64,000 bases of DNA from Antedon mediterranea (lineage: Eukaryota; Animalia; Echinodermata): NCBI RefSeq assembly GCF_964355755.1, contig NC_092671.1, forward strand, positions 15,128,001 through 15,192,000, given 5' to 3'. Both the position numbers and the translations under genes were made by a program. The notes beneath the pieces were generated by a model. That model did not search any database and was not told the DNA's origin. It worked only from the letters and a program-made list of their open reading frames with translations. This document shows, piece by piece, positions 1 through 44,139 of this stretch. Numbering within the stretch: the stretch's first letter is position 1; every line of letters starts with the position of its first letter.

Positions 1-2960
1 TCAATCTCAATTAAGTAGCTATTCCAGTAATATGTTTATTTTTCAGATAATGATCCCTGCACTTCAAATCCTTGTGGCACCAATGGAGACTGCAATTCTG
101 ATCAATGCTCATTTACTTGTGGATGTGATCCTTGTTACTCTGGTGCTGCTTGTCAGACATGTAAGTTTACTGACTTAACAGTCTTTCAATTCCATTTGAA
201 AACAGTTTAACATCAAAGCCAAATAGGTCAACAGACAGTAGTTACGCTTCAGATAAATTACTGCCAATAACCAGATAGTCAATCTCAATTAAGTAGCTAT
301 TCCAGTAATTTGTTTTTTATTTTTTAGATAATGATCCCTGCACTTCAAATCCTTGTGGCGCCAATGGAGACTGCAATTCTGATCAATGCTCATTTACTTG
401 TGCATGTGATCCTTGTTACTCTGGTGCTGCTTGTCAGACATGTAAGTTTACTGACTTAACGGTCCTTCAATTCCATTTGAAAACAGTTTGACATCAATGC
501 CAAATAGGTCAACAGACAATAGTTACACTTCAGATAACTTACTGCCAATAACCAGATAGTCAATCTCAATTAAGTAGCTATTCCAATATTTTGTTTGTTT
601 TTCAGATAATGATCCCTGCACTTCAAATCCTTGTGGCACCAATGGAGACTGCAATTCTGATCAATGCTCATTTACTTGTGCATGTGATCCTTGTTACTCT
701 GGTGCTGCTTGTCAGACATGTAAGTTTACTGACTTAACGGTCCTTCAATTCCATTTGAAAACAGTCTGACATCAAAGCCAAATAGATCAACAGACAATAG
801 TTATGCTTCAGATAAACTACTTCCAATAACCAGACAGTCAATCTCAATTAAGTAGCTATTCCAGTATTTTTTTTGTTTTTCAGATAATGATCCCTGCACT
901 TCAAATCCTTGTGGCGCCAATGGAGACTGCAATTCTGATCAATGCTCATTTACTTGTGCATGTGATCCTTGTTACTCTGGTGCTGCTTGTCAGACATGTA
1001 AGTTTACTGACTTAACGGTCTTTCAATTCCATTTGAAAACAGTTTGACATCAATGCCAAATAGGTCAACAGACAATAGTTACGCTACAAATAATTTACTG
1101 CCAATAACCAGATAGTCAATCTCAATTAAGTAGCTATTCCAGTAATATGTTTATTTTTCAGATAATGATCCCTGCACTTCAAATCCTTGTGGCACCAATG
1201 GAGACTGCAATTCTGATCAATGCTCATTTACTTGTGCATGTGATCCTTGTTACTCTGGTGCTGCTTGTCAGACATGTAAGTTTACTGACTTTACGGTCCT
1301 TCAATTCCATTTGAAAACTGTCTTGACATCAAAGCCAAATAGATCAACAGACAATAGTTATGCTTCAGATAAATTACTGCCAATAATCAGATAGTCAATC
1401 TCAATTAAGTATGTAATCCAGTAATTTGTTTATTTTTTAGATAATGATCCCTGCACTTCAAATCCTTGTGGCACCAATGGAGACTGCAATTCTGATCAAT
1501 GCTCATTTACTTGTGCATGTGATCCTTGTTACTCTGGTGCTGCTTGTCAGACATGTAAGTTTACTGACTTAACGGTCCTTCAATTCCATTTGAAAACAGT
1601 CTGACATCAAAGCCAAATAGATCAACAGACAATAGTTATGCTTCAGATAAACTACTTCCAATAATCAGATAGTCAATCTCAATTAAGTAGCTATTCCAAT
1701 ATTTTGTTTGTTTTTCAGATAATGATCCCTGCACTTCAAATCCTTGTGGCACCAATGGAGACTGCAATTCTGATCAATGCTCATTTACTTGTGCATGTGA
1801 TCCTTGTTACTCTGGTGCTGCTTGTCAGACATGTAAGTTTACTGACTTAACGGTCCTTCAATTCCATTTGAAAACCGTTTAACATCAAAGGCAAATAGGT
1901 CAACAGACAATAGTTTCGCTTCAGATAATTTACTGCCAATAATCAGATAGTCAATCTCAATTAAGTATGTAATCCAGTAATTTGTTTATTTTTTAGATAA
2001 TGATCCCTGCACTTCAAATCCTTGTGGCACCAATGGAGACTGCAATTCTGATCAATGCTCATTTACTTGTGCATGTGATCCTTGTTACTCTGGTGCTGCT
2101 TGTCAGACATGTAAGTTTACTGACTTAACGGTCTTTCAATTCCATTTGAAAACAGTTTGACATCAATGCCAAATAGGTCAACAGACAATAGTTACACTTC
2201 AGATAACTTACTGCCAATAACCAGATAGTCAATCTCAATTAAGTAGCTATTCCAGTAATTTCCTTGTTACTCTAGTGCTGCTTGTCAGACATGTAAGTTT
2301 ACTGTCTTTACTTGATAATACTTTACTTAATAATATTTAAAAACATTACGATATATTCTATACAGTATATGAATATTTAGTTGGCATGGGATGTGAGTGA
2401 TCTATAAATAAATACAAAAATATAAATTCAATTTGAATAGAGTTTTACAGATGCTCAGGATTGTTCTACACCATAGCATTGTACTTTATCTTTTTTTCAG
2501 ATAATTCAGATAATTTACTGCCAATAACCAGATAACTTACTGCCAATAACCAGATAGTCAATATCCAGGAGCTATTTCAGTAATTTGTTTGTTTTTCAGA
2601 TAATGATCCCTGCACTTCAAATCCTTGTGGCACCAATGGAGACTGCAATTCTGATCAATGCTCATTTACTTGTGCATGTGATCCTTGTTACTCTGGTGCT
2701 GCTTGTCAGACATGTAAGTTTACTGGCTTAACGGTCTTTCAATTCCATTTGAAAACAGTTTAACATCAAAGCCAAATAGGTCAACAGACAATAGTTACGC
2801 TTCAGATAATTTACTGCCAATAACCAGATTGTTTGTTTTTCAGATAATGATCCCTGCACTTCAAATCCTTGTGGCGCCAATGGAGACTGTAGTTCTGATC
2901 AATGCTCATTTACTTGTGCATGTGATGCTTGTTACTCTGGTGACACTTGTCAGACATGTA
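1..2960 (+). repeat. Intragenic tandem array of a ~278-bp exon+intron unit (gene A)
   Basis: Exon starts at 47, 328, 606, 884, 1162, 1441, 1719 and 1997 (spacing 278-281). Introns are nearly as similar between copies as the exons. Confidence 0.95.
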
Positions 2961-4882
2961 AGTTTACTGTCTTTACTTGATAATACTTTACTTAATAATA
3001 TTAAAAATTATTACGATATATTCTATATATGAATATTTAGTTGGCCAGAGATTAGTGAGTGATCTATGAATAGATACAAAAATATAAATTCAATTTGAAT
3101 AAAGTTTTACAGATGCTCAGGATTGTTCTACACCATAGCATTGTACTTTACCTTGTCAATTTCTTTAAGCATGTTTTCCAGTCGACATTGTGTTGCCTTG
3201 AATTTTCAAATTGTTAAAGTTGAAAATAAATACCAATAACCGAGCCAGACCGCTAATATTTACGCATTTTTATGTGATCGTTCATGGTTTTCTTGGTTCT
3301 ATCGAGCATTGCTGGGACACTCTCACGTGAAGTGTTGCAGACCGCGGGCCAGCTACACGCAGCCGGGACCACATACGAATTTGAAAAAGTCTGAAGTTCT
3401 TGATACTCAGCTGCAACCTGTTTATGCTGATATCTTAATCTATGTTTACAATAAGAAAAAAATGTATTTCATTGTGTTTGTATTATAATTAAGTTTGACT
3501 TACACTTGTTATTTTGAAATATATATAATATATATAAACATTGTCGCGTTTTAAAAATTCAAGAATTGTCAGTGCAAACTTATTTTTTTACAAACTATGA
3601 CGTAATTTGGGAACCATTTGATTGGTTAGTTTTAACTATCAATGAAGTTGAACTCGGTTCCTGTAAAAATGTTGAATCCAGTTATTTAAACTTTTCTGGA
3701 AAACAGGCTTTACCAAATAAGAATACAGTATTATTTATAGCCATTATCATCAGCAGATTTAAGTTAACACACTCTTCTTTCATGTATGTTTTATTTAGTG
3801 TAAGCCTAAACCTAAAAATTATAATACATTTCTGTATTTGTTTTTGGATTGTCATTTTTAGATACTGATCCATGTGATTCAAGTCCTTGTAATGCGTTTC
3901 AAGAATGTTCCATTGCCATTAGTGGAAATCAATGTGGTTATGATTGTGACTGTCTTCCCTGCTATTGGGGATCAAATTGTCAAAATGGTATGTTTTAGTA
4001 TCGTTCTGCTACTAAAAATGCATTTGCGAGTTTTTGAAAGCGTGTCACTGCATAGACCCATACACAGACACTCAAACATACATGAACTAGTACACCAGGT
4101 TTTATCACTCACTCATCTTAAAAGATGCCCGTCCACCAAAATCATTAAAAACATTCTGGTAAGCGAAAAACAAACATTTTTAATCTTTTATTTCTTATGA
4201 CCATTTACACAAAACAGATTGTACGGGGAATACTATATGCTTTTTTGCTTACATTACTGCTCGTCGTGTAAATTGGCCTTAAGAAACATACTTAAACAAA
4301 CTTGACCTCTCCCAGAGTTTTCTTAAGGCACCGGACCAAATGCGCGCTTAATGTGAATGTAGCTTGTTGCTAAATGGCAAAGAATAAGTGCGAAGTAGTA
4401 GATGAAACGAGAATGGATACTTTGACAGAGGTGAGCTGTAAAGTTGACAAGATAACCACCATAACTTTTTTTTTTATTGTTAGTGAGAGGTGGATGCAAT
4501 GGCACACCTTGTCAAAATGGAGGAACATGTGTACCAGTCCCATTTTCTGAAAATATCTGTTTTTATAGATGCGAATGTGAAGAGGGGCATTTTGGCAACA
4601 ACTGTCAATTTGATGGTAAATGTTTAAAACAATTCACATTCAAATGATGATTGATCACCAACTAGCTTAATTTTCACATAGCTCACCTACCGTGAAGTAG
4701 GAAAAATTCTGATCGCCACTCTGCTTAATATAAGCTTTCCATATAAAACCTCTAAAATAATTTTGTTTCCTGTACCATTTTTATATGTCATTTATGTGTT
4801 TGAACCAAATAAACCAAATCAAATCAGGTATTCAAGCAATTGTCTGCATAATAATTAAAATATTATTTTTCTTTCAGAATAA
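47..4882 (+). CDS. Gene A, 3' portion of a multi-EGF (fibropellin/Notch-repeat-like) protein; 5' end lies upstream of the window
   Basis: AG/GT-bounded phase-1 exons at 47-160, 328-441, 606-719, 884-997, 1162-1275, 1441-1554, 1719-1832, 1997-2110, 2600-2713 and 2844-2957 (114 nt each, YNDPCTSNPCGTNGDCNSDQCSFTCACDPCYSGAACQT). Then 3862-3987 (TDPCDSSPCNAFQECSIAISGNQCGYDCDCLPCYWGSNCQN), 4484-4615 (VRGGCNGTPCQNGGTC...CECEEGHFGNNCQFD) and a likely last exon from 4878 giving E-stop (TAA 4880-4882). AATAAA near 4943. The terminal exon is less certain than the EGF exons. Confidence 0.85.
2261..2292 (+). pseudogene. 5'-deleted EGF exon remnant (donor kept, acceptor lost)
   Basis: The intron sequence ...tccagtaatt joins directly to tccttgttactctagtgctgcttgtcagacat|gtaag. 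The polypyrimidine tract, the AG and the first ~80 nt of the exon are missing. Confidence 0.8.
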
Positions 4883-9504: not shown

Positions 9505-12500
9505 ATGGAGCTACAAATTACTTTAATTGTTTTGAGCATATTTAATTTTGCAAATGCTGGTAAGTCTTTATCTTATCTATTTCATATTTGTGTAGATGGT
9601 TAATGCTGTAGAAATTAAATTTAGTAAATTATTAAAATTGTTAAAATAAAAAATAGTATAACAAATTTAGTGTAGTTAATACTATAAAAAAGTGTGTTAA
9701 TTTAAAATTTTTTTTTGTGAAAACAAATTACCAATGTTATTCATTAATAAGTTATAAAATACCTGAGATTGTAAGAATTTTGTAAAAAAAATACTACAAA
9801 ATGAATGAAAAAATAAATGTTCACACAATAATTAATTAATTGTTTTGACTGAAGAAGATAATAGGAAACAAATACACTCGAATACATAGTGTTGATTGAA
9901 ATGTTACTACCCCACTGATTTCTTATAGGCTATATACCAGTAGGGGATCCATGTTTAAATCACAGATGTAGCGAGTATGGAGAATGTGTAGCCAATGCGT
10001 GGGGTACAGGCTACTACTGTCGGTGCACAGAGTCATGCTATAGTGGCCCCTATTGTACTACCTGTAAGTATCATTACTTTCATGAATATAATTATGTATA
10101 CTAAAAAAAAATACTAAGATACAGGAAAACATGTATAACAGGCAATATTATACAAATAAAAAAAGTACTATTAAATGTTCGTTCATTAGTGCATACTATT
10201 GCATGCCATGTGATCCACAATCATCCAATCAAATGAAATGAATTTATTTATGTTTTATATAATATGTGTTATTGGGTAGGAATGCTGGATATACTCACAA
10301 GGATTATAATGGAAAAATACTTTCCAATGTGATTTTTAGACGGTAGTATTAGTAATAAATTATTATAAAGCCAATGTTATGTTACTCTATTGTTTAATCT
10401 TATTTTCAGATAACAATCCATGTGGAAGTATATGGTGCAAGAATGGTGGACTTTGTGAATCCGATGGATGTGATGCTAGTTGTAAATGTGAAGGGTGTTA
10501 CAGTGGGCAGGTTTGCCAAACATGTAAGTTGACTTTTTTTATTCAATGAGTAAAATTACTTGGTGTAATTACTATATAGTATAATTTCACACCCTAATTA
10601 AAATGTACTTTACTGTTATATTGTATATAGTAGGCCTATACCTACTATACTGTAGTTGAGTACTGTCTTAGTGTAATTTCACTTTGCCCTGCTATTATAT
10701 CTATATACAATAAAAGAAACAAAAATAATTCTTGTGTTATTAACATATGACCTACCACTCCATTCACAATCATTTGTATAATTTTCGATTTAAACATGAT
10801 GAACTATTGAGCCAACATATCAACAGTTTTGTTGATGTTGATAATTTTCCTTCAATTGTTTTCTATTTTTGTGTTTCTTGAAGATTCCGATCCATGTAAC
10901 GAGGTTAACTGTAATGGCGGTGAGTGTGAAGTCATCTCAACAGATTCTGAATGTTCATATAGATGCAGAAATTGCCCCCAATATTATTATGGAAGTCATT
11001 GCGAACTCAGTAAGTTGATAATATAGCATGTTATGTTAATATAGCATGAAGCCATTGATAAATTTAATCATTGTAGGCCTAGTTTGATGTTCTTACTACA
11101 GTTGAAATATTTTCTAAAATATTATGTTAAAAGTGAAATAAATATTTGTGTGAACATACTGTAACTTTGTGTTTTATTACATTTTTTAGAAAGAAATCCA
11201 TGTGACTCAGTTGACTGTAAAAATAGTGGAAATTGTTACATTGATTCTTATTACCAAGTATATTGCGAATGTCAAGATTGTTATTCTGGAACATACTGTG
11301 AAAAATGTAAGTTTGTTGAATTTCGAATCCAAAATTATTTTTTCTTATCTTAATTACAATTAATTAATATTATTTTATTAATTTAAATATAATGAAATTA
11401 TATACTTTTTTCTTACAGATAATGATCCTTGTTATAATGATGATAATCCATGTGAAAATTCTGGTCTCTGTATTTCTGAGGGTTGTAATTTTTGGTGTAA
11501 ATGTCCACCATGCTATACTGGTGACAGTTGTGAAAATGGTAAATCTTACATATTACATTTTCAGTGTTGTACTGTACCTAGTAAACAAAAATCCACAGCT
11601 AAAATTTTATTTCATTTGATAAATTTTTACTTTATCGTTTTACAGAAATTGATCCTTGCAGTGATATTGACTGTAATGGTGGCAAATGTGACGTAATCTC
11701 AACAGATTCAGTGTGTTCATACCAATGTATTAACTGTCCTGCTCACTATTCTGGAGATAACTGTGAAATATGTAAGTTTACTTAATTATACATTCATTAA
11801 TCATTATCAAATATATTCCATATAAAATCATTTGCTTTAATCATCTCTATTCTATTCTTCAGATACCAATCCATGTGACTCAGTTGATTGTAAAAATGGT
11901 GGAAATTGTTACATTAATTCTTATTACCAAGTTTATTGCGAGTGTCAAGATTGTTATTCTGGAACATACTGTGAAAAATGTAAGTTTGTTGAATTTCGAA
12001 TCCAAAATTTCTTATCTTAGTTCATTGAAATAAAAATAACAATTTATACACATTTTTCTTACAGATAATGATCCTTGTAATCATTATAGTAATCCATGTG
12101 AAAACTCTGGTCTCTGTATTTCTGAGGGTTGTAATTTTTGGTGTAAATGTCCAGCATGCTATACTGGTGAAAGTTGTGAAAATGGTAAAACACTGTCTAA
12201 TATTACATATATTACATGAACCTCTTTGTTAGAAAATGAGTAAAAATTTATGGCTAAATAAAACTTATGATATGTTTTTCAGTGTTGTAACTAGTAAACA
12301 AAAATTAACAGCTAAAACATTATTTCATTTGATGACATTTTACTTTATTGTTTTACAGAAATTGATCCTTGCAGTGATATTGACTGTAATGGTGGTAAAT
12401 GTGACGTAATCTCAACAGATTCAGTGTGTTCATACCAATGTATTAACTGTCCTGCTCACTATTCTGGAGATAACTGTGAAATATGTAAGTTACTTAATTA

Positions 12501-15500
12501 TACATCCATTAATCATTATCAAATAATATTCCATATAAAATCATTTTTGCTTTAATCATCTCTATTCTATTCTTCAGATACCAATCCATGTGACTCAGTT
12601 GATTGTAAAAATGGTGGAAATTGTTACATTAATTCTTATTATCAAGTTTATTGTGAATGTCAAGATTGTTATTCTGGAACATACTGTGAAAAATGTAAGT
12701 TTGTTGAATTTTGATCAACAATTATTATTTTTTCTATCTTAGTTACAATTACTAAAGTTATTTGAAATAAAACTAACAATTTATTAATTTAAATATAATG
12801 GAATTATACACTTTTTTCTTACAGATAATGATCCTTGTAGTGATGATAGTAATCCATGTGAAAACTCTGGTCTCTGTATTTCTGAGGGTTGTAATTTTTG
12901 GTGTAAATGTCCAGCATGCTATACTGGTGAAAGTTGTGAAAATGGTAAAACACTGTCTAATATTACATATATTACATTAACCTCTTTGTTAGAAAATGAG
13001 TAAAAATGTATGCCTAAATAAAACTTATGATATGTTTTTCAGTGTTGTAACTAGTAAACAAAAATTAACAGCTAAAACATTATTTCATTTGATGAATTTT
13101 TACTTTATTGTTTTACAGAAATTGATCCTTGCAGTGATATTGACTGTAATGGTGGCAAATGTGACGTAATCTCAACTAATTCAGTGTGTTCATACCAATG
13201 TATTAACTGTCCTGCTCACTATTCTGGAGATAACTGTGAAATATGTAAGTTACTTAATTATACATTCATTAATCATTATCAAATAATATTCCATATAAAA
13301 TCATTTGCTTTAATCATCTCTATTCTATTCTTCAGATACCAATCCATGTGACTCAGTTGATTGTAAAAATGGTGGAAATTGTTACATTAATTCTTATTAC
13401 CAAGTTTATTGCGAGTGTCAAGATTGTTATTCTGGAACATACTGTGAAAAATGTAAGTTTGTTGAATTTCGAATCCAAAATTTCTTATCTTAGTTCATTG
13501 AAATAAAAATAACAATTTATACACATTTTTCTTACAGATAATGATCCTTGTAATAATTATAGTAATCCATGTGAAAACTCTGGTCTCTGTATTTCTGAGG
13601 GTTGTAATTTTTGGTGTAAATGTCCAGCATGCTATACTGGTGAAAGTTGTGAAAATGGTAAAACACTGTCTAATATTACATATATTACATGAACCTCTTT
13701 GTTAGAAAATGAGTAAAAATTTATGGCTAAATAAAACTTATGATATGTTTTTCAGTGTTGTAACTAGTAAACAAAAATTAACAGCTAAAACATTATTTCA
13801 TTTGATGACATTTTACTTTATTGTTTTACAGAAATTGATCCTTGCAGTGATATTGACTGTAATGGTGGTAAATGTGACGTAATCTCAACAGATTCAGTGT
13901 GTTCATACCAATGTATTAACTGTCCTGCTCACTATTCTGGAGATAACTGTGAAATATGTAAGTTACTTAATTATACATCCATTAATCATTATCAAATAAT
14001 ATTCCATATAAAATCATTTTTGCTTTAATCATCTCTATTCTATTCTTCAGATACCAATCCATGTGACTCAGTTGATTGTAAAAATGGTGGAAATTGTTAC
14101 ATTAATTCTTATTATCAAGTTTATTGTGAATGTCAAGATTGTTATTCTGGAACATACTGTGAAAAATGTAAGTTTGTTGAATTTTGATCAACAATTATTA
14201 TTTTTTCTATCTTAGTTACAATTACTAAAGTTATTTGAAATAAAACTAACAATTTATTAATTTAAATATAATGGAATTATACACTTTTTTCTTACAGATA
14301 ATGATCCTTGTAGTGATGATAGTAATCCATGTGAAAACTCTGGTCTCTGTATTTCTGAGGGTTGTAATTTTTGGTGTAAATGTCCAGCATGCTATACTGG
14401 TGAAAGTTGTGAAAATGGTAAAACACTGTCTAATATTACATATATTACATTAACCTCTTTGTTAGAAAATGAGTAAAAATGTATGCCTAAATAAAACTTA
14501 TGATATGTTTTTCAGTGTTGTAACTAGTAAACAAAAATTAACAGCTAAAACATTATTTCATTTGATGAATTTTTACTTTATTGTTTTACAGAAATTGATC
14601 CTTGCAGTGATATTGACTGTAATGGTGGCAAATGTGACGTAATCTCAACTAATTCAGTGTGTTCATACCAATGTATTAACTGTCCTGCTCACTATTCTGG
14701 AGATAACTGTGAAATATGTAAGTTACTTAATTATACATTCATTAATCATTATCAAATAATATTCCATATAAAATCATTTGCTTTAATCATCTCTATTCTA
14801 TTCTTCAGATACCAATCCATGTGACTCAGTTGATTGTAAAAATGGTGGAAATTGTTACATTAATTCTTATTACCAAGTTTATTGCGAGTGTCAAGATTGT
14901 TATTCTGGAACATACTGTGAAAAATGTAAGTTTGTTGAATTTTGAATCCAAAATTTCTTATCTTAGTTCATTGAAATAAGAATAACAATTTATACACATT
15001 TTTCTTACAGATAATGATCCTTGTAATAATTATAGTAATCCATGTGAAAACTCTGGTCTCTGTATTTCTGAGGGTTGTAATTTTTGGTGTAAATGTCCCG
15101 CATGCTATACTGGTGACAGTTGTGAAAATGGTAAGACACTGTCTAACATCTTACATATATTTAATGAACCTTTTTGTTAGAAATGAGTACAAATCAACTA
15201 ATTTGAAAATGTAATGCCTAAATACAATTTATGATAGGTTGTAACTAGTAAACAAAAATCAAGAGCAAAAACATTATTTAATTTGATGACATTTTACTTT
15301 ATTGTTTTACAGAAATTGATCCTTGCAGTGATATTGACTGTAATGGTGGCAAATGTGATGTAATCTCAACTGATTCAGTGTGTTCATACCAATGTATTAA
15401 CTGTCCTGCTCACTATTCTGGAGATAACTGTGAAATATGTAAATTAACTTATTATACATTCATAATCATTATCAAGTATGCCTTATAACATCATTTGTGC

Positions 15501-18500
15501 TTTAATCATCTTTATTCTATTCTTCAGATACCAATCCATGTGACTCAGTTGATTGTAAAAATGGTGGAAATTGTTACATTAATTCTTATTATCAAGTTTA
15601 TTGCACGTGTCAAGATTGTTATTCTGGAACATACTGTGAAAAATGTAAGTTTGTTGAATTTTGATCAACAATTATTATTTTTTCTATCTTAGTTAAAATT
15701 ACTAAAGTTATTTGAAAAAAAACTAACAATTTATTAATTTAAATATAATGGAATTATACACTTTTTTCTTACAGATAATGATCCTTGTAGTGATGATAGT
15801 AATCCATGTGAAAACTCTGGTCTCTGTATTTCTGAGGGTTGTAATTTTTGGTGTAAATGTCCAGCATGCTATACTGGTGAAAGTTGTGAAAATGGTAAAA
15901 CACTCTGTCTAATATTACATATATTACATGAACCTCTTTGTTAGAAAATGAGTAAAAATTTATGGCTAAATAAAACTTATGATATGTTTTTCAGTGTTGT
16001 AACTAGTAAACAAAAATTAACAGCTAAAACATTATTTCATTTGATGACATTTTACTTTATTGTTTTACAGAAATTGATCCTTGCAGTGATATTGACTGTA
16101 ATGGTGGCAAATGTGACGTAATCTCAACAGATTCAGTGTGTTCATACCAATGCATTAATTGTCCTGCTCACTATTCTGGAGATAACTGTGAAATATGTAA
16201 GTTACTTAATTCTACATTCATTAATCATTATCAAATAATATTCCATATAAAATCATTTGTGCTTTAATCATCTCTATTCTATTCTTCAGATACCAATCCA
16301 TGTGACTCAGTTGATTGTAAAAATGGTGGAAATTGTTACATTAATTCTTATTACCAAGTTTATTGCGCGTGTCAAGATTGTTATTCTGGAACATACTGTG
16401 AAAAATGTAAGTTTGTTGAATTTTGAATTCAAAATTATTTACTGCAATTACTTAAGTTATTTGAATTATAATTAACAATTTATACCCATTTTTGTTACAG
16501 ATAATGATCCTTGTAATGATGATAGTAATCCATGTCAAAACTCTGGTCTCTGTATTTCTGAGGGTTGTAATTTTTGGTGTAAATGTCCAGCATGCTATAC
16601 TGGTGACAGTTGTGAATATTGTAAGAATCCTATCTACATACATACAAAGTTCTTATATTAATTATAATTTTACAATTATTATACATTTTTCTTATAAAAT
16701 AATAATTAATCATTTCAGCATTATTTTCAAATCATTTTGAAAGGTCTTACTTTCCATCCTCCTATCTGTTGTAATTGTAATTTTAATTGTGTTTGTATGA
16801 ATTTATTTCACTAAATTTTAATAAATTATTTTCTACTTAGACATTAACCCTTGTGAAGATGTGAATTGTAATGGCGGGCAATGTGTAGTTATTTCAAACA
16901 TCAGTCAGTGCACATATGAATGTACCAACTGTCCATATGGCTATACTGGAAACAATTGTGAAACTTGTAAGTACAGTATTCAATTACTTGTTAAAGCATT
17001 CCATTTGGTTATAAATTCCCTGAAATCATAACTTTTAGATGTCATTTATTACCTCCACCAGAATTGCAGGAGGTTATGAGGTAAATCGGGTGTGTTTGTT
17101 TCTGTCTATATTTGTTGGTTAGCAGGATATATTATGTTTTATTTGTGTTATAATGGTTATACTTTATATTTGTGGGTAAATAAAAGAAAGTAGAAAACTG
17201 TATTGCCTCATTTTCATAAGATTTTAAAGGATGGTTTCATAGCTGTATGGAAACATGCGATTTAATTTTCATATGCCTAGGCAGAGCTTTTAGTTATGTG
17301 TATGTTATGTTTTTTTCATTTCAGAATGAAAAAAAAAAAACTGGCCAACATAAATTTTCAAAACTACACTGTTTCTATTCAAGTTATTCCTTCTTCTTGT
17401 TATTTTGAGACAAATAAATTATTACTAATAACTTTTTTCCCTTCTTTTTAGATATTGACCCTTGTCAATACACTGATTGTGAAAATAATGGAACTTGTGT
17501 AGTTAAACCAGACCACACTACTGAATGTAAATGTAAAGAGTGTTATTCTGGCACTCTATGTCAAGACTGTGAGTAAAATCTAAAGCTCTGTCTACACTAT
17601 TAAAATTGATGTGACAAAAAAATGTAATATGCCCATATATGGATAGACACGATGATGTCATATCACTACCATATTTGGCCACATCACACTTTTTTATCAA
17701 ACTAGTTTGATAGTGTAGACAAAGCTTAATAACATTATTCTTATTCCATGTATATTAATATATGTAATATTTTAAACATTTAGCTTTGTATATAGAAAAG
17801 ACTGATTAAAGAATTTTTCTTGTTAGAAACTCATAAACCGTTGCTAATAATTAACTTTAAAGTACATGAATGAAGATATATTCTAGTTGCGCATAAAATA
17901 TGTTGAAATTTAGAGTCAAAAGAGGATAACCGTATTATGGTGTTTTAAAAATATTTAATAACTATGTTATGTTTTTTTTTACTAGATGTAAGCAGTGCAT
18001 GCGATAGTCATAAATGTGGTAATGGTGGCGTGTGTGAATCAACTGGATGTAATACGTACAAGTGTGTTTGTCCCATGTGTTACACTGGACGATACTGTGC
18101 CTCCCGTAAGACTTCACTCTCTTTTAAATACAAATTTGTCTGCACATCAGTACATTCATATTGCTTATGTATATATATTATTAGGCTAATAGAAATCCAA
18201 AGACAAATTACTGAAATAAAATAAGCAAAAAGCTAAATCAAAATGATAAATTAAAACAACCAGAAAAATTTGCAGAGCTTTTGGGTAACAGTAACCCTTC
18301 ATCAGTATAAGGAGTACCTAATTATTTAGGTTTTTAAGATCTTCTGTAATCTCTAACTGTAATTACTGTTTGTTTCAATATCATATTTTTATACACTAAC
18401 AGGAGTTGATCCATGTGAAAATCATGGGTGCCAAAACAATGGAGTTTGTATTCCACTTGTACCATCGTGTGAACGCTACAGGTGTTGGTGCCGTCGTGGA

Positions 18501-18799
18501 ACTACTGGCAATAGATGTCAATGTAAGTATGAACACGGATTACAAAATGTATGTGTTTATGCGTTTGTTACCTAATTAACAATGCCTCTCGGAGTACAGT
18601 GATTTATTTGTTACTAACAAGACTCCTATGTCATAATTAACAATGCCTCTCGGTCTACAGTGATTTATTTGTTACTAACAAGACTCCTATGTCATAATTA
18701 ACAATGCCTCTCGGAGTACAGTGATTTATGTGATAAGACTAACATTTTACAATTTTACTTGCAGATACTTCTGGTTACTACGCCCCATACGGAGGATAA
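9505..18799 (+). CDS. Gene B: secreted protein with signal peptide, 30 tandem EGF-like modules and Tyr-rich tail (~1241 aa, 32 coding exons)
   Basis: Signal exon 9505-9559 (MELQITLIVLSIFNFANA). EGF exons: 9929-10063, 10410-10523, 10884-11009, 11190-11306, 11419-11538, 11646-11771, 11863-11979, 12065-12184, 12359-12484, 12578-12694, 12825-12944, 13119-13244, 13336-13452, 13538-13657, 13832-13957, 14051-14167, 14298-14417, 14592-14717, 14809-14925, 15011-15130, 15313-15438, 15528-15644, 15775-15894, 16071-16196, 16290-16406, 16501-16620, 16841-16966, 17452-17568, 17986-18105, 18403-18522. Last exon 18765-18799 (YTSGYYAPYGG*). All introns are GT-AG and phase 1, and all EGF exon lengths are divisible by 3. 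No TM segment seen. Confidence 0.92.
11190..16620 (+). repeat. Intragenic tandem array of a three-exon unit (~700-760 bp) with a 1473-bp six-exon higher-order duplication
   Basis: Exon types NPCDSVDCKNGGNC / DPC..NPCENSGLC / DPCSDIDCNGGKC cycle in strict order. The offsets 11863->13336->14809 and 12825->14298 are all 1473 bp, and identical ORF-track entries appear at 12798 and 14271. Confidence 0.95.
17046..17130 (+). mobile_element. Decayed 5' end of a Helentron/HINE (DINE-1-like) element
   Basis: ttattACCTCCaccagaattgcaGGAGGTtat short palindrome followed by a degenerate GTTT/GTCT microsatellite and ttagcaggat. This resembles the left end of HINE-type elements, recognised from memory only. 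Confidence 0.4.
17584..17726. mobile_element. 143-bp MITE with TAA target duplication (PIF/Harbinger, Tourist-like)
   Basis: taa|AGCTCTGTCTACACTAT ... ATAGTGTAGACAAAGCT|taa (16/17 TIR match). The internal arms are also imperfectly self-complementary. Confidence 0.8.
18573..18729. repeat. 61-bp minisatellite, ~2.6 copies, last intron of gene B
   Basis: taattaacaatgcctctcgg... starts at 18573, 18634 and 18695. Confidence 0.9.
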
Positions 18800-21953: not shown

Positions 21954-24900
21954 ATGGAACTCCAGTTGTTAATTGTAATTGTAGGGACATTTAGTTTTTC
22001 AAGTGCTGGTAAGTCAATACTCATTCTGTAATTAAATTGTAGTAGTGAATATGTAAATAAATATATGTATTATCAATTAATGGTTATTCAACATAAATGT
22101 GAATAAATGTGTTCTACTTGTAAATAGTATTTAATCAAACTCAAACTTTGTCCGCCGACACATAAACCAGCATCTAATGTTGAAAAATTATTTTCATACC
22201 TTAGTATGTTTTATTGATAGTAGATATACATACCATTAGAACTTGTAGAAGATATTTTTACTTAACGCTAATGCAATAAATATAAACTCACTCATCATTC
22301 TGCAGTTTATTTCATTTAAATAGGTTTTAATCAACCTAATGACCTATTCCGACACAGGCTAGCATATTATGTTGAAGAATTATTTTGTACTAGCTTAGTA
22401 TTTAGTTTTACTTAACGCTAATACTAGAAATATAAATTAACTTTATTTTAGGCTATATACCCGTTGGTGATCCTTGTCTAAATCACCGATGTGGTGACAA
22501 CGGAATATGCGTTGCAAATGCGTGGGGAACAGGATATTACTGTCAATGTGTGGGATCGTGCTACAGTGGTGCATACTGTGATATATGTAAGTTTATTCTT
22601 TTCATTACTAGTTAATTATTGATAATGTTACAGTATAAACAACTCACTCACTGTCATCCTGATCAAAGATCTGTCAGCAAGCAGCTTTATTTAATTGTTT
22701 TCATATTTATGTTATGTTTAACATCACCATATCCAATATGAAAGTAGCTTTTACCAACTTTATCAACGTCTTACATAGAACTATCATCACATACCATAAC
22801 TGAACAAACCTAACCTATAGCTCTAATTATTAATTATCGAACATTGTCCAATTCTAGATTCCAATCCCTGTTCTGGTGTAACTTGTGGCGATTATGGTTA
22901 TTGTGAAGAGGATGGATGCAGCTTTAACTGCAGATGTGCAAGCTGTTTTACTGGGAGTCAGTGCCAAACATGTAAGACTGTCAAATACAGACAGTAACTA
23001 AAAACAATGTATAACAACAAACTCTTTATTTCCACACGATTGGCAATGTATTATAATTTCTAATATAAAGTATTGTTTCCATATTAATGTGTGGTTTTAT
23101 ACTATTTTTATATTATTTTAAGAATGCGTACTGTTCATAGTAAAGATGTACAGCAATATAATATATTTAAGTTGATAGAAAGTGGGGGCATTTGTCAGTT
23201 TAACATGCTTATAAAATGGTTGCTTCTGCAATGAATAATATCAAAACTAATGATAATACCAGCTTCTAGCTTCGGTATTCATTCAATGGCTTGTACTTCT
23301 TCATATCTGTTGAATTTTCTTCTTTTTTAACACAGCCATTCTTTATATTCATATATTTATTTAATTTTTAAAGGAAATGGTGTAAAGTGAATTGTATTTT
23401 TCAAACGTATAGGTCATCTATCAAATTTGAAACTGTTCAATTGTTTTCATTTGTAGTTAACAATCCTTGCAACGGAGTTAACTGTAACAACGGTCAGTGT
23501 AATACTATTTCAACTTTCAATGACTGTTCTTACCAATGTATTTGTCCACCTTTATATTATGGTACAAATTGTGAAATAGGTGAGTAGATATAATTTGTCT
23601 CCTTATTCATAGCACTCCTATTGTGATCAATAAATTAGAAACTCGACATAAAATTTTACCAAAATGCGGTATCTTCCCCTTAGGCTAATCTTATACCGCC
23701 ATGGTCTAAATATAATGACGACTAGACGAGTTTATTTAACATAATTACAATATAATTGTTTAGAGAAAAACCCATGTGAAACGTTTCATTGTAAAAATGA
23801 CGGAACTTGCATCGTCAACTCTGAATTTGAAGCTGAATGCATATGCCGAGTGTGCTACTCTGGTCACTACTGTGAACAAGGTACGTGTAGTCCTAAGTTA
23901 TTATTAATTCAATATTTTACACTTATGGTAAACCACAAATTTAAAAATGTTTACAGCCTACTGTATGCCTGTACCATATAATGTTTTCTTGGAGGAAACC
24001 AGTCTTTTAAAGCATTCAATAGAGATAAATACAATTTTAATTTTTCTAAATACACAACAAACAAGAAACTATAATATTATAAACAGTCGTCAATTATCTT
24101 CATTGATCTAAAATATGAATCCTGTTTCAGAAGCACCATCTAAATAATTTCAGATAACATAACACTCTACTTATATTATCAAATTTAGCTTGAATCGAAA
24201 GGGAGGTACTGCCAAAAGAAAATATCTCGCTATCTGTCCCTCTATGGGATTCAAACATTAGCCAAAATGATGGAGAATGTCTAAAATGATTATGAATATT
24301 TTAGAAAGTTTATCATAGTAGGCATGTACCTCTTTTTAATTTGTGTGACAATAGTTTAAAAGCAAAATGGTAAAAGACACCAATTCAATTTTATCCTAAC
24401 AAAATTATTTCTTGAACGACTATTATCCGAAGTTATGAACTAGACAAGATAAAGTGAGTGTTTTATCTCCATTTAGCAATTAATCCATGTGCCGGTATAA
24501 ACTGCAATGGTGGAAGATGTGTCGTCGTTCAAACATCCACTGAATGTGGTTACCAATGTACAGATTGTCCACCTTGGTACAGTGGAATTTACTGTCAAAC
24601 ATGTAAGTATTGCCGTCCATAACAATTCTACAGAAACGGTACTATTTTTGTCTGAACTTTTCTTTCTGAGAAACGATCAATTGAAAATTATATAAAATTC
24701 TTCAAAATGATGGCAATTCGAAAGCTTAAATAAATTGTAGTCTTTGATCACAGATCAACTGGTATTATATTGATAATCTACCGACTTAAGTAGTTTGTTA
24801 TTTCTTTACCACTGATTTTCAATAAAATACAAATAAATTAAATTCCTAAAGCAAAGAATTTAGTTTAAATATTTGAGTATGTGTTTACCGCATAATTACA

Positions 24901-27900
24901 TGCTGTCAAAGCGTAACTCCAAACAACCGAGTCGAATTCAATTGTTAGAATATTCATTTATAAAGAAGTTGAAAAGTGTAACAATGTAAGTAGATTTAAA
25001 AGCTTATATTGAACAAATAAATTCGTTTAAATCCTGATTTTCATTTGTTCAATTGTCCATCATACTCAAGGTAATACTAGACTAATAATTATCTTTAAAT
25101 TTTATTTGTTGATCCAATGTATCAATATTTAATTTCTAAATATATTAAAATTTAATATATTAAACATTAAAACATATATGGTTTATATACTATGTTACAA
25201 TAATACTATTCATATTTCTAATGTACTCACAAGTTAGTCGATACAAAAAATGTTGAATTATTTAAATGTTATTGTTTTTTTTACCAGATACCAATCCCTG
25301 CCAGTTTGTGAATTGTCGTAATAATGGAACTTGCCTGGCTTCATCAATTAGTCACTCAGCTGTGTGTAACTGTTTAAGCTGTTACTCTGGGACTCTATGT
25401 GAACAATGTGAGTTCATTCAGAAAGCTGCCATTAGTATTAGTATACATTCGATCCACTTGCACCAGCAATGAACAATAAGTTCTGTTTTTCTACATATTA
25501 TACTGAATTACGTCATTCTATAAATTATTCATTGATAATCGTTGACATTATGCATGCTTGTCTTACTGTATAATCATTTAAAAAACTGGATTCGAATCAT
25601 GTATCTGCTGGACAATCAGTATTATCTTGCTGTGATCAAAGCATGCCCACTTTAATCGTTATTAAATCGGATCCGATTGAGCACAATTTATAAAGCATTA
25701 TGTATTTCGGCCTATAAAATATAATACCTTTTTTTCAGACAACAATCCTTGTGCTGTGCTACCTTGTGAAAATGGAGGCGTGTGTTCCGCACAGGCCTGT
25801 GGCTATTCTTGCTCATGTCCAGCTTGTTATTCTGGAAACAGATGTCAAACATGTAAGTTACTATTTTATGTTACTACTTCACTATTATTATATATACTTC
25901 ATGAAAGTACTCAGTACCTTGTATTACAATCTCGAACTTACTCAAACCTAAAGCAAGTGATCTGGAGAACACATGCCACACGTTGTTAAGTTTAGTCAAA
26001 TCTAGTATTTAAAAAATAATAATAATAAATTATCTTTGTATTAATTATAATATTTTCTTTCTTTAGATAACAATCCGTGTATTGGCGCTAACTGCAATAG
26101 TGGTCAGTGTGTTATTGTATCAACTTTTAGTGAATGTAGCTATGAATGCGATTGTCCTCCAAATTTTTCTGGAACTGATTGCGAAATATGTAATTACACA
26201 TTTATTACAAATTTATGATTAGTAAATGTTGCAAATAATCCTTTTACTTAGGACCACTTCAGACTTATTTACCCGGGTAAGAGGAGGACCAACCCGCCAA
26301 AGTTAGCGATAAATGTAGGCATAGGCCTACCCATGAAAACAACTTGCCCAGGTAAATAAAACTTGAACGGACACATAGTCACAACCTCATGACTAAGTAT
26401 CTATAGCATGGGTAAAGTAAGTATCTATAGTATTATTCTTTTGAAATTAAATCCAGTACAAATTACATTATAGTTGTTGATCCATGCGAGGATATATTAT
26501 GTCAAAATGAAGGTACTTGTTGTGTAGATGATACAAATGCAGCATCGTGCAAGTGCTTGTCCTGTTATGAAGGGGCATTCTGTGAAATATGTAAGTATTT
26601 TTAATATTTGTAATTTTAAGCATTTTAATTTGTTCTTCCTAATGTAACCAACATTTTTTAATGGATTACCTATATAATTAAGGTGTATACATTTCTGTAC
26701 GTCGACATTTATGGATATATTTTGTTTTATATTTCTCTTCAATTCGCCTATTGTCGTTAACATAACCCTTTCTCTATAAGAATAGTCTTACAGTATAGAG
26801 CTTGGCCGTGTGTTAACTTGTTGACACTTTTCCTTCTTCAGATAACAACCCATGTAACTTGAATCCGTGTGGTGAAAACGGTATTTGTATTGCACAAGGA
26901 TGTGCCTTCCAGTGTATTTGTGATCCATGTTACGCTGGGGCCCTGTGTACAGATCGTAAGTTGTTTTTTGGATATTGATGCTGCACAAAGTAACATGTAT
27001 ATTACAATATATTCCATACCAGATAGTAAGTAATAGAAATACACATTTTTCTACCTTATGATACATAAGATATGATTTTTTTTTCACAGTGACAAATCCA
27101 TGTAGCAGTGTTAATTGCGACCCAGGGGTATGTGAAATTGTCGCAACGCCGACAGAATGTAACAGTCAATGTAACTGTCCAGAATGTTATTCCGGAGACT
27201 TTTGTCAAACATGTAAGAAAACAATTAAATACTTGAATAAAAACTCTATTAGTATGTCATAATCATTTGCTTACCCCACCGCTGAACTCACCCTTGACAA
27301 AATGCTGACTACCGTCCTAGTCTAATACAGTAAAACAAAACTCTTGCTTACCTATATTTCCAATAGATCTAATATTATACAGTATAATCAAGAAGCATAT
27401 TTCAATATAATATTTTTGTTACTTTATACAGTTACAAATCCCTGTGATGACATTACTTGTGAAAATGGCGGTGTTTGTGAAATTTCAGTGGGCACAGAAG
27501 ATGCTTCTTGCACAGGTATATGTCAGTGTCAAGGGTCATGCTACACCGGTGACAACTGTCAAATTTGTAAGTGAAAAACTGAACACATTGACATGATTTC
27601 TAGGGAGGAAAGTGTCATCATCATCATCACATAAACCTTTATTAAATTCAAGTTGGTATAATTTTTTCACGCACAAGAAAACATACATAGAGGATTCATA
27701 TTTATTTATTTTTATTTATTCCACATTTATTTAGTCATCAATTACAGTACATCATAATTACAGTACAACTGAAAACAGGGATCCTGCATAAAAAAGCTGT
27801 AGCTTCGTTTTTTTGTAGGACCCTTTTACATAAGAACAAGTATATAGAACTTAAATAAAACAAAGGTGTTGCTAATTAGCATATAGTGATAAAAAGTATT

Positions 27901-30900
27901 TTTTGACCTGTTTTTTTATACATTTATTTTGTTTCTTTAAAATAACCGGTTTATTACCACCATTACAAGTGAATTCTTTCCACAATTTTGGTCCATGTGT
28001 ATAAACTGTTGACTGCAAGTTAGTCTTGTGAAGGGAATTTTGAATTCAGTTTCTGTTCTGAGGTTATGAGTAGGCCTAAATACTGTCACAGTAATTAAAA
28101 ATATTTAAAATGTGATGTGGTAATTCATTGAATTTTACGTTTGCCATAAATCCTATGACGTTTACTTTGTAAATATCATAAACGTTTGTTTTAACTCAGT
28201 CAAAAACCTTGCGAACGATTTTAAATTTCCTGTAACATTAAATAGATACTGTCACAATATATTCAACTTTATTAAGTATTCAATTCAATATATATTTATT
28301 AGTAAAGTATCAGTTATTTAATATGTATTCTATATTTATAATAATACTTTTGTAAACAGACTCTAATCCATGCGACGATTCTCCGTGTCTCAATAATGGT
28401 GTTTGTGTACCAAATGGTTGCAGTTACCAGTGTCAATGTACAGCATGCTACAGTGGAAACTTTTGTGAAACATGTAAGTCCATAAAACAGCTAGGTCTAC
28501 AGTGAATTCAAATTGTATGATCATTATGTTTCATTAATCGGTTTCATTAATCAGTATCAAGCATGGACAATGCAGGTTGCTCATCCTCTTTGAGTGTTGA
28601 AATGTGACTTGTTGCAGTTTTACTGCTATATAGTTTGGTGACTTTTTGCGGTCATTTCAATTCAATCATATCTATTCTGTCATTAAAAGTGTACTTGTAG
28701 CAAGCACATTCCATGTTTTTAGCATAGACACTTCGTCATTGTAGACTAGGCTTAAGACTCTAAAATTGCATTCCTACAGCTAACGATCCATGCAACGCAT
28801 TCGAATGTTTGAATGGAGGTGTTTGTCAAGTTGTGGAAAATGGAGGTTCCTGTTCTGCCAGATGTTTATGTCTATCCTGCTATGAAGGCTTTCTCTGTCA
28901 AAATTGTAAGATTTGTCAATTAGCTCTTTAATATATGATGTATATAAAGTACTATGTCGTCATTGCAGCTGGCCTAATTAAAACTCATGTAAATCTGGTA
29001 ATTTAAGTACCACTTTTAAATACGAATGTAGCCGTCATTGTCTTAATCTAAATAAATGTTTATACGGTTTTTCGTATCAGATAATGATCCTTGTGATGCT
29101 GATCCCTGTGGTAATTTTGGAACTTGTACGTCGACTGGTTGCTCGTTTACATGTACCTGTGATCCATGTTACTATGGAACCCTCTGCAATGCAGGTAAAG
29201 CAGCTTTTACACTACAGAATAATTAGAAAGAAGTGGTTTAGTTAAGAACTGTATTTCCCAAGTAAATTGTTTCCTCAAACTATGAAATGGAAACCCTCAT
29301 CAAGCTCTCTGACTTGAAATTATTATCTATAAAAGTAATCGTATATGATATATGTGCTACCTTTAGGATATATGGAGAAACAAATACATACATACTCCAT
29401 ACCCTTGGTTAATATTTATTTGTTATTGCTAATTTATTCAATTTGTAAAGGATCCTTCGTTGCCTTTTAATTTTAGACAAAAGTTCCACTTATTCTTCTC
29501 CTGTATGTTACAACCTATGTTGAACCAGGGAAGATTGAAGGTTGAACATACAAATACAGATATATAATAAAGATAATTACAAACACAAAAACCAAACATG
29601 TTTCCCCTCTCTGACTACATTGTTTCATAATTGTAGCTTTTAACCCATGTGATGCGCATGACTGCCAAGGCAACGGTCAATGTGAAACGATTACAGATGG
29701 AGGAACCTGCCTTGCAAAGTGTCGATGTGAAAGCTGTTATCAGGGAGATAGCTGCGAAACATGTAAGTGTACAAATATGTATTCAAGTAATGAAATCTTT
29801 GCGGAATGGTCGGTGTTACAAACGGAATAGTACTAATGTATTTTGTATCATATACAGATATTGATCCTTGTATCGGAGATCCGTGCAGCACAACTGGAAC
29901 TTGCATGTCTGACAGATGTGTGCTCTGGTGCCATTGTGACCTCTGTTATACAGGAACCACGTGTGAAACATGTTCGTATAAGACTTGTTTACAGTTTTTT
30001 GCACCTGACTATAATCATACCTACTATACAAATGTCGGTTATTCCATATTAAGTGATTCCATATTTCCAGCAACAACGTATAAAGGTTCAGTACTGCGGT
30101 TCCTTTATTATTGTATTATTCTAAATTAAGATTTTTAACGTGTTCATTAATTTCAATAATGTTTAGTTGAAAATCCATGCGTCGGTGTGTTGTGTCAATT
30201 TGGTGGTACTTGTCAAGTAACAACAGCAAATGGACAATGTGAATTCCAATGTCAATGTCCAACGTGCTATTCTGGAACATTCTGTGAAAACTGTAAGTAT
30301 TGATAATATTTGCAGCCAATGTTTTAGTATTAGTACAGTGCAGTACGAGTATGATATTTCTGTTACAATTTAAAATTACAATTTATGTTTCATTAGTTCA
30401 AAACCCATGCTCTGCAGTCCAATGTCAATTTGGTGGTATTTGCCAGACAACAACCAATAATCAATGTGGATTTCAATGTCAGTGTCCACCATGTTATTCT
30501 GGAACTTTCTGTCAAAATTGTAAGTATAGCAACCGGCAACAATAGAAATATAATATAATTTTACCCTTCTGAGTTTTATTACTGTTGAAAGTCTTGTAGA
30601 TTTTTATTTGTGAAAGCCAGTATGTATGAACCGATCCTATTCCGATAATATACATTTTGTTACTTTTTAGATCAAAACCAATGTGACGGTATTACGTGTC
30701 AATTCGGTGGGACTTGTCAAGTGACATCAACCAATGGACAATGTGGATTTCAATGTCAATGTCCAACGTGCTATTCTGGAGTATTGTGCCAAAATGGTAA
30801 TCATACAACAGCTATTCTTTTATACCACTTTTATAGTTAAATAAATATTTTGTTGGAGAACTAAGTTAAAGTTATAGTCTACTGTTTCTAATTATGTTTA

Positions 30901-43744: not shown

Positions 43745-44139
43745 TGGATTTAACTGAAATACCTCAACATATTATTAAACGTGTGCTATTTATATGCAAT
43801 AATAATAATTAATTATATTAAAATACTATAAATTACAGATATAATTTCATGTAAAAACATACATGATTTAATGTAATTATATTATGTATCAAATAATATA
43901 TAATTTAAATCAGAAACCAGCTATGAATAATACACAATTTCATTTATATATTATTATATATTACTTTAAACATACTAGCGATATTAAATTAAAGTAAAAT
44001 TTTTAGGTAAAAACTAAATAATTTCGTTCATTGGTGTTCTAATGCAAGCTTTAGTTTATTCATTTACCTTATTTATATATATTATTTTATTAATTTCGAA
44101 AAAACACACAAATACAAACATACTGACAACAAGTGGAGA

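What the first reader, a model, noticed from the sequence alone, without database searches (positions are those of the whole stretch)
9929..18522. Gene B is exactly ten 7-8-7-Cys EGF trimers; the duplication unit equals the predicted stapled unit
Seen: all 30 modules fall into the repeating order tail-only / both / hairpin-only. This includes the divergent first trimer (9929-11009) and last trimer (17452-18522), which are outside the recent array. The amplified units contain 3 or 6 exons (1473 bp), never 1 or 2. By contrast, genes A and C amplified single exons of the self-compatible 8-Cys type. Inference: every exon is phase 1-1, so reading frame would allow any duplication. The constraint seen here fits selection for Cys pairing, giving a jointed chain of ten short rigid links.
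Basis: partly seen in the sequence, partly recalled or inferred. Interest (0 to 1): 0.75.

Follow-up and report, generated by a model that had tools for sequence, protein, structure and literature searches.

The report
Disulfide-stapled EGF chain in repeating trimers
This animal gene has a signal peptide and 30 EGF modules whose spare cysteines fall in a strict three-module rhythm that likely bonds each module to the next, a linkage we also found hinted at in other marine invertebrates; the three-exon duplication unit is real but is weak evidence of selection on its own.

Summary
Observation confirmed. Gene B has 30 phase-1 EGF exons in the exact order tail-Cys / both / hairpin-Cys, ten times. 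Its recent array repeats at 713/760 bp (3 exons) and 1473 bp (6 exons). The 'staple' reading is well supported but inferred. Tail Cys of module n and hairpin Cys of n+1 are both present or both absent at 101 of 101 junctions in the three genes here. In database proteins (brittle star, sea cucumber, acorn worm, Seison), 24 of 25 tail-Cys junctions have the partner Cys. The two positions sit at the known Notch EGF-EGF packing interface. The evolutionary inference is weaker. One-exon (both) and two-exon (hairpin+tail) changes are also Cys-neutral. The array stems from about one founding event in pre-existing period-3 homology, and its register is undetermined. Paralogue C has a two-module block where B has the amplified trimer. 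'Kinks' are unproven: unstapled joints keep the packing Tyr and the same 6-residue linker. The more interesting result is a general T-B(n)-H staple grammar. Ten searches of the held library found no description of it. No disulfide was shown directly.

The parts
9505..9559 (+). Gene B signal-peptide exon (18 codons + 1 nt, phase-1 donor)
   Evidence: translation; GTAAGT donor
9929..11009 (+). Trimer 1: T 9929-10063, B 10410-10523, H 10884-11009 (divergent; paralogous to gene C modules 1-3)
11190..16620 (+). Homogenised array T4..B26: 8 T, 8 B, 7 H exons; periods 713/760 bp (3 exons) and 1473 bp (6 exons)
   Evidence: no Cys codon varies among the 23 copies; spliced H-T-B contig in run X9
16841..16966 (+). 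H27, divergent hairpin-only exon closing trimer 9
17452..18522 (+). Trimer 10: T 17452-17568, B 17986-18105, H 18403-18522 (B29/H30 paralogous to C61/C62)
18765..18799 (+). Predicted last coding exon, short Tyr/Gly-rich tail and stop; no anchor
   Evidence: splice not confirmed by RNA
21954..43621 (+). Paralogue gene C: signal exon 21954-22008 and 62 EGF exons, pattern TBH TH TBH t*B(45)H t*BBBb*BH; 489 Cys (3 Cys outside the staple rule)
47..4615 (+). 3' part of paralogue gene A: 11 B exons (278-bp single-exon array) ending in an H exon

Best explanation
Gene B encodes a predicted secreted 1241-residue chain of 30 EGF modules in which a spare cysteine in the C5-C6 loop of one module likely forms a fourth disulfide with a spare cysteine on the major hairpin of the next, so that the modules would be locked in ten covalently stapled trimers. 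The staple likely stands in for the Ca2+ site that stiffens Notch/fibrillin EGF pairs. The general rule is a grammar: a block starts with a tail-only module, runs through any number of 'both' modules and ends with a hairpin-only module (T-B(n)-H; n = 0, 1, 2, 4, 5, 45 seen). Selection probably removes rearrangements that leave an unpaired Cys. The 3-exon size of B's amplified unit is most simply inherited: the ancestral gene already had homologous TBH trimers in tandem, unequal crossing-over between like exons gives three-exon steps, and later steps inherit that period. The product is probably a structural extracellular protein (coat, matrix or adhesive scaffold). Shown: exon structure, Cys pattern, repeat periods, splicing of one H-T-B set. 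Inferred: the disulfide, rigidity, selection, function.
For: 101 of 101 junctions concordant in genes A, B and C. All three genes end with H, and B and C begin with T. Among 364 database proteins (redundant, mostly Notch/Crumbs/SNED1-like), 24 of 25 parsed junctions with an upstream tail Cys have a hairpin Cys downstream, against 7 of 5585 junctions without one. The 24 come from 8 proteins: Amphiura TBBBBH and TBBH, Holothuria TBBBBH and BH, Ptychodera T-B run, two Seison TH, one unnamed TH (names). The tail Cys replaces the usual Gly (5592 modules) beside the aromatic that in Notch packs on the next domain's major hairpin (PMC4826273 passages), and the hairpin Cys aligns to that hairpin turn. 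AlphaFold of the Ptychodera protein gives tandem EGF folds with block pLDDT 72-96; the best three-domain superpositions are to rod-like Notch EGF11-13 (rmsd 3.4-3.8 A) rather than bent EGF4-7 (13.6-15.2 A). A contig from another study of the same species label joins H, T and B exons without introns (GT..AG joint absent from the three other runs). T, B and H are sequence families by descent, shared with gene C.
Against: No disulfide was observed: the fold tool returns no S-S distances, and the model's geometry may simply echo Notch training structures. Exceptions exist: one tail Cys without a partner (P0106, Notch4-like) and two hairpin Cys without an upstream tail (P0003, P0019); five further cases carry two loop Cys and may self-pair. 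Gene C has 3 Cys outside the rule, so intermolecular bonding occurs or is tolerated in this family. That no Cys-neutral 1- or 2-exon duplication is seen inside B's array leaves room for a real preference for trimers. Only 1 of 11 single modules tested passes Pfam's EGF cut-off. RNA status of run X9 is a guess by the tool.
Confidence: 0.7

Rival explanations
1. One reading: the trimer itself is the selected unit; selection on Cys pairing and link length fixed the 3-exon duplication unit, giving ten rigid links with flexible kinks.
For: All 30 modules in TBH order and only 3n-exon periods. EGF repeats are usually duplicated one domain at a time (PMC1553488 passages), so a 3-exon cassette is atypical. 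In organism B, H and T array contigs have similar depth (334 vs 316 in X6; single-copy pieces 43-60) and a contig joins a B exon back to the intron before H (depth is not a copy number). Module N-termini lack the Ca2+ consensus, and non-Ca junctions in Notch can be bent or flexible.
Against: About one independent founding event. With equal priors on 1-6 exon units, Cys filtering raises P(3n) only from 0.33 to 0.6 (from one search counts). Paralogue C has a T-H dimer at the likely matching position and runs of 47 and 7 stapled modules. Unstapled joints keep the packing Tyr and 6-residue linker.
Confidence: 0.19
2. The spare cysteines pair between molecules (tail of one chain to hairpin of another), cross-linking a fibre or gel rather than stapling neighbours.
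For: 17.7% Cys secreted protein with no other domain; gene C has an odd Cys count.
Against: Does not explain why presence is coupled strictly between adjacent modules in N-to-C direction in distant taxa, including isolated T-H pairs inside plain EGF arrays.
Confidence: 0.08
3. The two spare Cys of a 'both' module pair inside that module (as in other 8-Cys EGF types), and 7-Cys modules carry free thiols; the rhythm is only a duplication relic.
For: 8-Cys modules have an even count; the ten trimers share ancestry.
Against: Leaves 20 free thiols in B; cannot explain T-first/H-last order or T-H dimers; by the EGF fold the two sites lie at opposite ends of a module (established knowledge, not measured here).
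Confidence: 0.03

Closest known systems
Notch/fibrillin-type tandem EGF pairs (human Notch1 EGF4-13; PDB 9b3n, 2vj3, 5fma)
   Same: Six-Cys EGF spacing, 6-residue linkers, aromatic four residues after C5; best PDB sequence and fold matches.
   Different: Notch stiffens pairs by Ca2+ plus aromatic-hairpin packing (PMC4826273, passages). Here two extra Cys occupy that interface and the Ca2+ consensus is missing. None of the PDB alignments shown (3 + 2) has the extra Cys.
Uncharacterised ambulacrarian EGF proteins (Amphiura XP_072051694.1 = P0023, P0195; Holothuria P0220, P0252; Ptychodera P0260) and Seison P0002/P0003
   Same: Same two extra Cys and the same T-B(n)-H order.
   Different: One or two stapled blocks inside multidomain or membrane proteins; none is an EGF-only chain of repeated trimers. 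Database names are automatic (Notch-like, fibropellin-like, uncharacterized).
Octovafibrin (octopus egg thread; PMC10336842, passages)
   Same: About 135 kDa secreted structural protein with 29 tandem non-Ca EGFs.
   Different: Three disulfides per EGF and terminal C-type lectins; no inter-module Cys described.
Drosophila Dumpy EGF-DPY-EGF triads and nebulin 7-domain super-repeats (PMC2930355, PMC10895422, PMC1553488, passages)
   Same: Multi-module repeat unit in a structural protein; the idea that selection for functional units favours their duplication is in print.
   Different: No DPY or ZP domain here; the unit is defined by a predicted covalent link between EGFs.
Laminin-type and integrin-type 8-Cys EGF domains (recalled; review not held)
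   Same: A fourth disulfide added to the EGF fold; integrin type also has a Cys in the major hairpin (recalled).
   Different: Their extra partner lies after C6 (laminin) or before C1 (integrin); here it lies between C5 and C6 of the preceding module and is optional junction by junction.

Membership tests
EGF-like domain (Pfam PF00008 clan) | Six Cys in C1-C6 spacing with G three before C6 | tested here: met
   30 of 30 modules parsed; invariant columns
EGF-like domain (Pfam PF00008 clan) | Pfam gathering score | tested here: inconclusive
   1 of 11 single exons passes the cut-off; 6 of 11 hit an EGF family at E<=0.1
EGF-like domain (Pfam PF00008 clan) | EGF fold | tested here: inconclusive
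   Shown for homologue P0260; the spliced gene B protein itself was not folded
Calcium-binding EGF | Acidic D/N-x-D/N-E/Q motif before C1 (consensus partly recalled) | tested here: not met
   28 of 29 linkers end in Pro and one in Ala before C1
Laminin-type EGF | Extra Cys pair C-terminal to C6 (recalled) | tested here: not met
   No Cys in any linker
Integrin I-EGF | Extra Cys N-terminal to C1 pairing with a hairpin Cys (recalled) | tested here: not met
   Hairpin Cys present but no Cys before C1; the partner candidate is in the previous module's C5-C6 loop
Dumpy | DPY modules and ZP domain | tested here: not met
   Only EGF exons, signal exon and short tail found
Octovafibrin-like | Terminal C-type lectin domains | tested here: not met
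   None in the predicted gene model; feature passages
Stapled EGF (proposed) | Disulfide between tail Cys(n) and hairpin Cys(n+1) | not testable with these tools
   Only co-occurrence and position were tested; no S-S distances are returned by the fold tool

The most novel reading that the evidence does not exclude
An undescribed class of EGF module: a Ca2+-independent inter-module disulfide staple, used from Seison to echinoderms and hemichordates, whose T-B(n)-H grammar programmes rod length and hinge position one exon at a time and filters which exon duplications survive. This gene cluster would be its extreme form: one paralogue of ten trimer links, others with rods of up to 47 stapled modules.
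Probability: 0.45. Interest if true: 0.7.

Novelty: new variant of a known kind. Interest (0 to 1): 0.5.

Why it matters
Rigidity of EGF arrays is usually explained by Ca2+ binding and aromatic packing. A covalent staple at the same interface, readable from sequence, would be a second way to build stiff EGF rods and place hinges. It would give a simple design rule for EGF biomaterials and a countable constraint on exon duplication: every exon is frame-compatible, yet only Cys-neutral junctions are seen. The three paralogues give a natural series (dimer, trimer, long rod) for testing it.

Tried and rejected
No genome held for the window, so no haplotype comparison. Single-exon homologue search found nothing. 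Single-sequence AlphaFold of P0220 failed (pLDDT 35) and was not used. ESM Atlas gave only generic EGF clusters. Three look-ups of earlier findings were empty. No RNA holder was listed; X9 was added by species label. X9 does not cover trimers 1 and 10, which proves nothing. Exon B2 (10410-10523) has no cover in organism B runs X5 and X6 while the other exons laid do; the only joints near it have sides of 24-28 letters and touch a high-copy repeat, so a one-exon loss is not established. No remnant of a B exon in the C4-C5 intron (scores within shuffled null). Register of the founding duplication: tested by H-exon ancestry and intron edges, unresolved. The module tree was mostly unresolved (9 of 42 branches starred); only nearest neighbours and starred pairs were used. 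My first classifier had an off-by-one for the tail Cys (labels), corrected. A recollection that fibulins or Dumpy have such inter-EGF bonds was not supported by the searches or passages read and is not claimed. Literature: ten searches found no description of this staple; subscription papers (Downing 1996, Wilkin 2000, Wouters 2005) were not seen and could mention it. No supplements were read.

Full report
Anatomy. The window holds three tandem + strand paralogues made of one-EGF-per-exon, phase 1-1 exons: the 3' end of gene A (12 exons), gene B (30) and gene C (62). Gene B has a signal exon at 9505-9559 and a short predicted last exon at 18765, giving 1241 residues, 220 Cys (17.7%), no anchor and no other domain. 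Beyond the six EGF cysteines each module has a 'tail' Cys six residues before C6 (T), a 'hairpin' Cys four or five before C4 (H), or both (B). B reads (TBH)x10 exactly; A reads B11-H; C reads TBH TH TBH t*B45H t*BBBb*BH, where * marks one further Cys. The organism was not determined; the closest stapled modules are from echinoderms and a hemichordate, so an ambulacrarian is likely (inference).

Expression. One 361-nt contig of run X9 (RNA by the tool's guess; another sample and study with the same species label) carries an H exon, a T exon and a B exon end to end. The T-B joint skips 112 nt with GT..AG ends and is absent from the three other runs laid (tables 5 and 8; table 8). This supports the splice model for the array. 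Trimers 1 and 10 were not covered.

The staple. Tail Cys of module n and hairpin Cys of n+1 are both present or both absent at 11 of 11, 29 of 29 and 61 of 61 junctions. After dropping array copies, shuffled orders reach full concordance in 3460 of 200,000 trials (9 B modules) and 3 of 200,000 (27 C modules); modules share ancestry, so these are not fully independent. Independent support comes from 364 database proteins collected by three searches and three cluster look-ups. Of 25 parsed junctions with an upstream tail Cys, 24 have a downstream hairpin Cys; of 5585 without, 7 do. The 24 lie in 8 proteins from Amphiura, Holothuria, Ptychodera, Seison and one unnamed record, always ordered T, B..., H where the block is complete. 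Exceptions: one Notch4-like tail Cys without a partner and two lone hairpin Cys; the other five discordant cases have two loop Cys. The tail Cys replaces the usual Gly next to the aromatic four residues after C5. In Notch1 that aromatic packs against the major hairpin of the next domain to give a rod (PMC4826273, passages), and the hairpin Cys aligns to that turn. An AlphaFold model of the Ptychodera protein (45-row alignment) folds the stapled run as tandem EGFs with high confidence and superposes best on Notch EGF11-13. It returns no S-S distances, so the bond remains inferred.

The duplication unit. Self-matches in the array fall at 713/760 bp (3 exons), 1473 bp (6 exons) and their sums, with none under 600 bp. 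Two trimer flavours alternate (T-B intron 85 or 130 bp), so the 6-exon unit is a higher-order repeat. The homogenised tract runs from T4 to B26. H27 and H3 are about equally distant from the array H (64% and 66% ungapped), so the breakpoints could fall at any of the three junction types. Enumeration shows all 3n-exon blocks are Cys-neutral but so are about a third of the others: B alone and H-T (8 of 23 for one exon, 7 of 22 for two). Since T, B and H are sequence families older than the B/C split, recombination between like exons of neighbouring trimers gives three-exon steps without selection on size. One founding event carries a likelihood ratio of only about 1.8 for Cys filtering under equal priors on 1-6 exons. 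Gene C likely has a T-H dimer where B has its amplified trimer (B4~C4, C5~B27, B28~C6), a 5-exon duplication of B-type exons, and an old duplicate pair of H-t* modules (C8-9, C55-56). All are Cys-neutral, and the first two are not three-exon changes. So the data fit 'junctions must be Cys-neutral' well and 'units must be trimers' poorly. None of 19 exonic variants I took from the displayed rows (40 of 97 and 40 of 122 rows shown) changes a Cys; one lies in a junction codon and was not translated.

Shape. Unstapled H-T joints lack both the staple and a Ca2+ site, so they may be the more mobile points; non-Ca junctions in Notch are bent or flexible. But they keep the packing Tyr and the same 6-residue linker, and the flexible Notch joint is one that lacks the aromatic. 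'Kinks every three EGFs' is a hypothesis, about even odds.

Comparison and novelty. Closest are Notch-type EGF arrays by fold, octovafibrin by overall design (PMC10336842, passages), and Dumpy or nebulin for multi-module repeat units (PMC2930355, PMC10895422, PMC1553488, passages; CREMP preprint 10.1101/2025.09.16.676614, passages). It fails the tests for cbEGF, laminin-type and integrin-type EGF (the last two definitions recalled). Ten searches of the held library and two PDB sequence searches (five alignments inspected) showed no description or structure of this staple; key subscription papers were not seen. Verdict: a new variant of a known kind. The finding as framed (unit equals trimer by selection) is only partly supported; the staple grammar beneath it is the stronger result. 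Interest 0.5.

Noticed in passing
window 26474-26590, 41160-41276, 42495-42626: Three gene C modules carry one Cys outside the staple rule (two with CC at C3, one near C1); total 489 is odd, suggesting interchain or long-range bonds in gene C but not in gene B.
   Followed up: partly
window 10398-10668 (exon B2): No contig cover in organism B runs X5 and X6 while neighbouring exons are covered; could be a Cys-neutral single-exon loss or a filter/repeat artefact.
   Followed up: partly
window 27090-27566 (C11, C12): C11 is a 'both' module whose nearest neighbours are H modules, and C12 has the longer C5-tail spacing of first modules B1/C1: possibly an unstapled joint that gained both Cys together (tree unresolved).
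   Followed up: partly
window 2261-2292 and 40457-40540: Partial exon remnants: 3' half with donor in gene A; 5' part with acceptor but no donor in gene C.
   Followed up: no
window 35098-35223: One gene C exon has a GC donor (GCAAGT); skipping it would be Cys-neutral.
   Followed up: no
window 18765-18799 and 43716-43745: Genes B and C end in short Tyr/Gly-rich tails, candidates for cross-linking or assembly.
   Followed up: no
window 10155-10265, 17580-17730, 18160-18335: High-copy interspersed repeats inside gene B introns (very high summed depth); 61-bp minisatellite at 18573-18729 in the last intron.
   Followed up: no
window 46400-63500: Complex satellite built from 98-bp units with 324-478-bp higher-order repeats.
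   Followed up: no
P0260 residues 361-402: The Ptychodera run ends with a B module followed by a lone Cys in the stalk, a possible partner for the last tail Cys.
   Followed up: no
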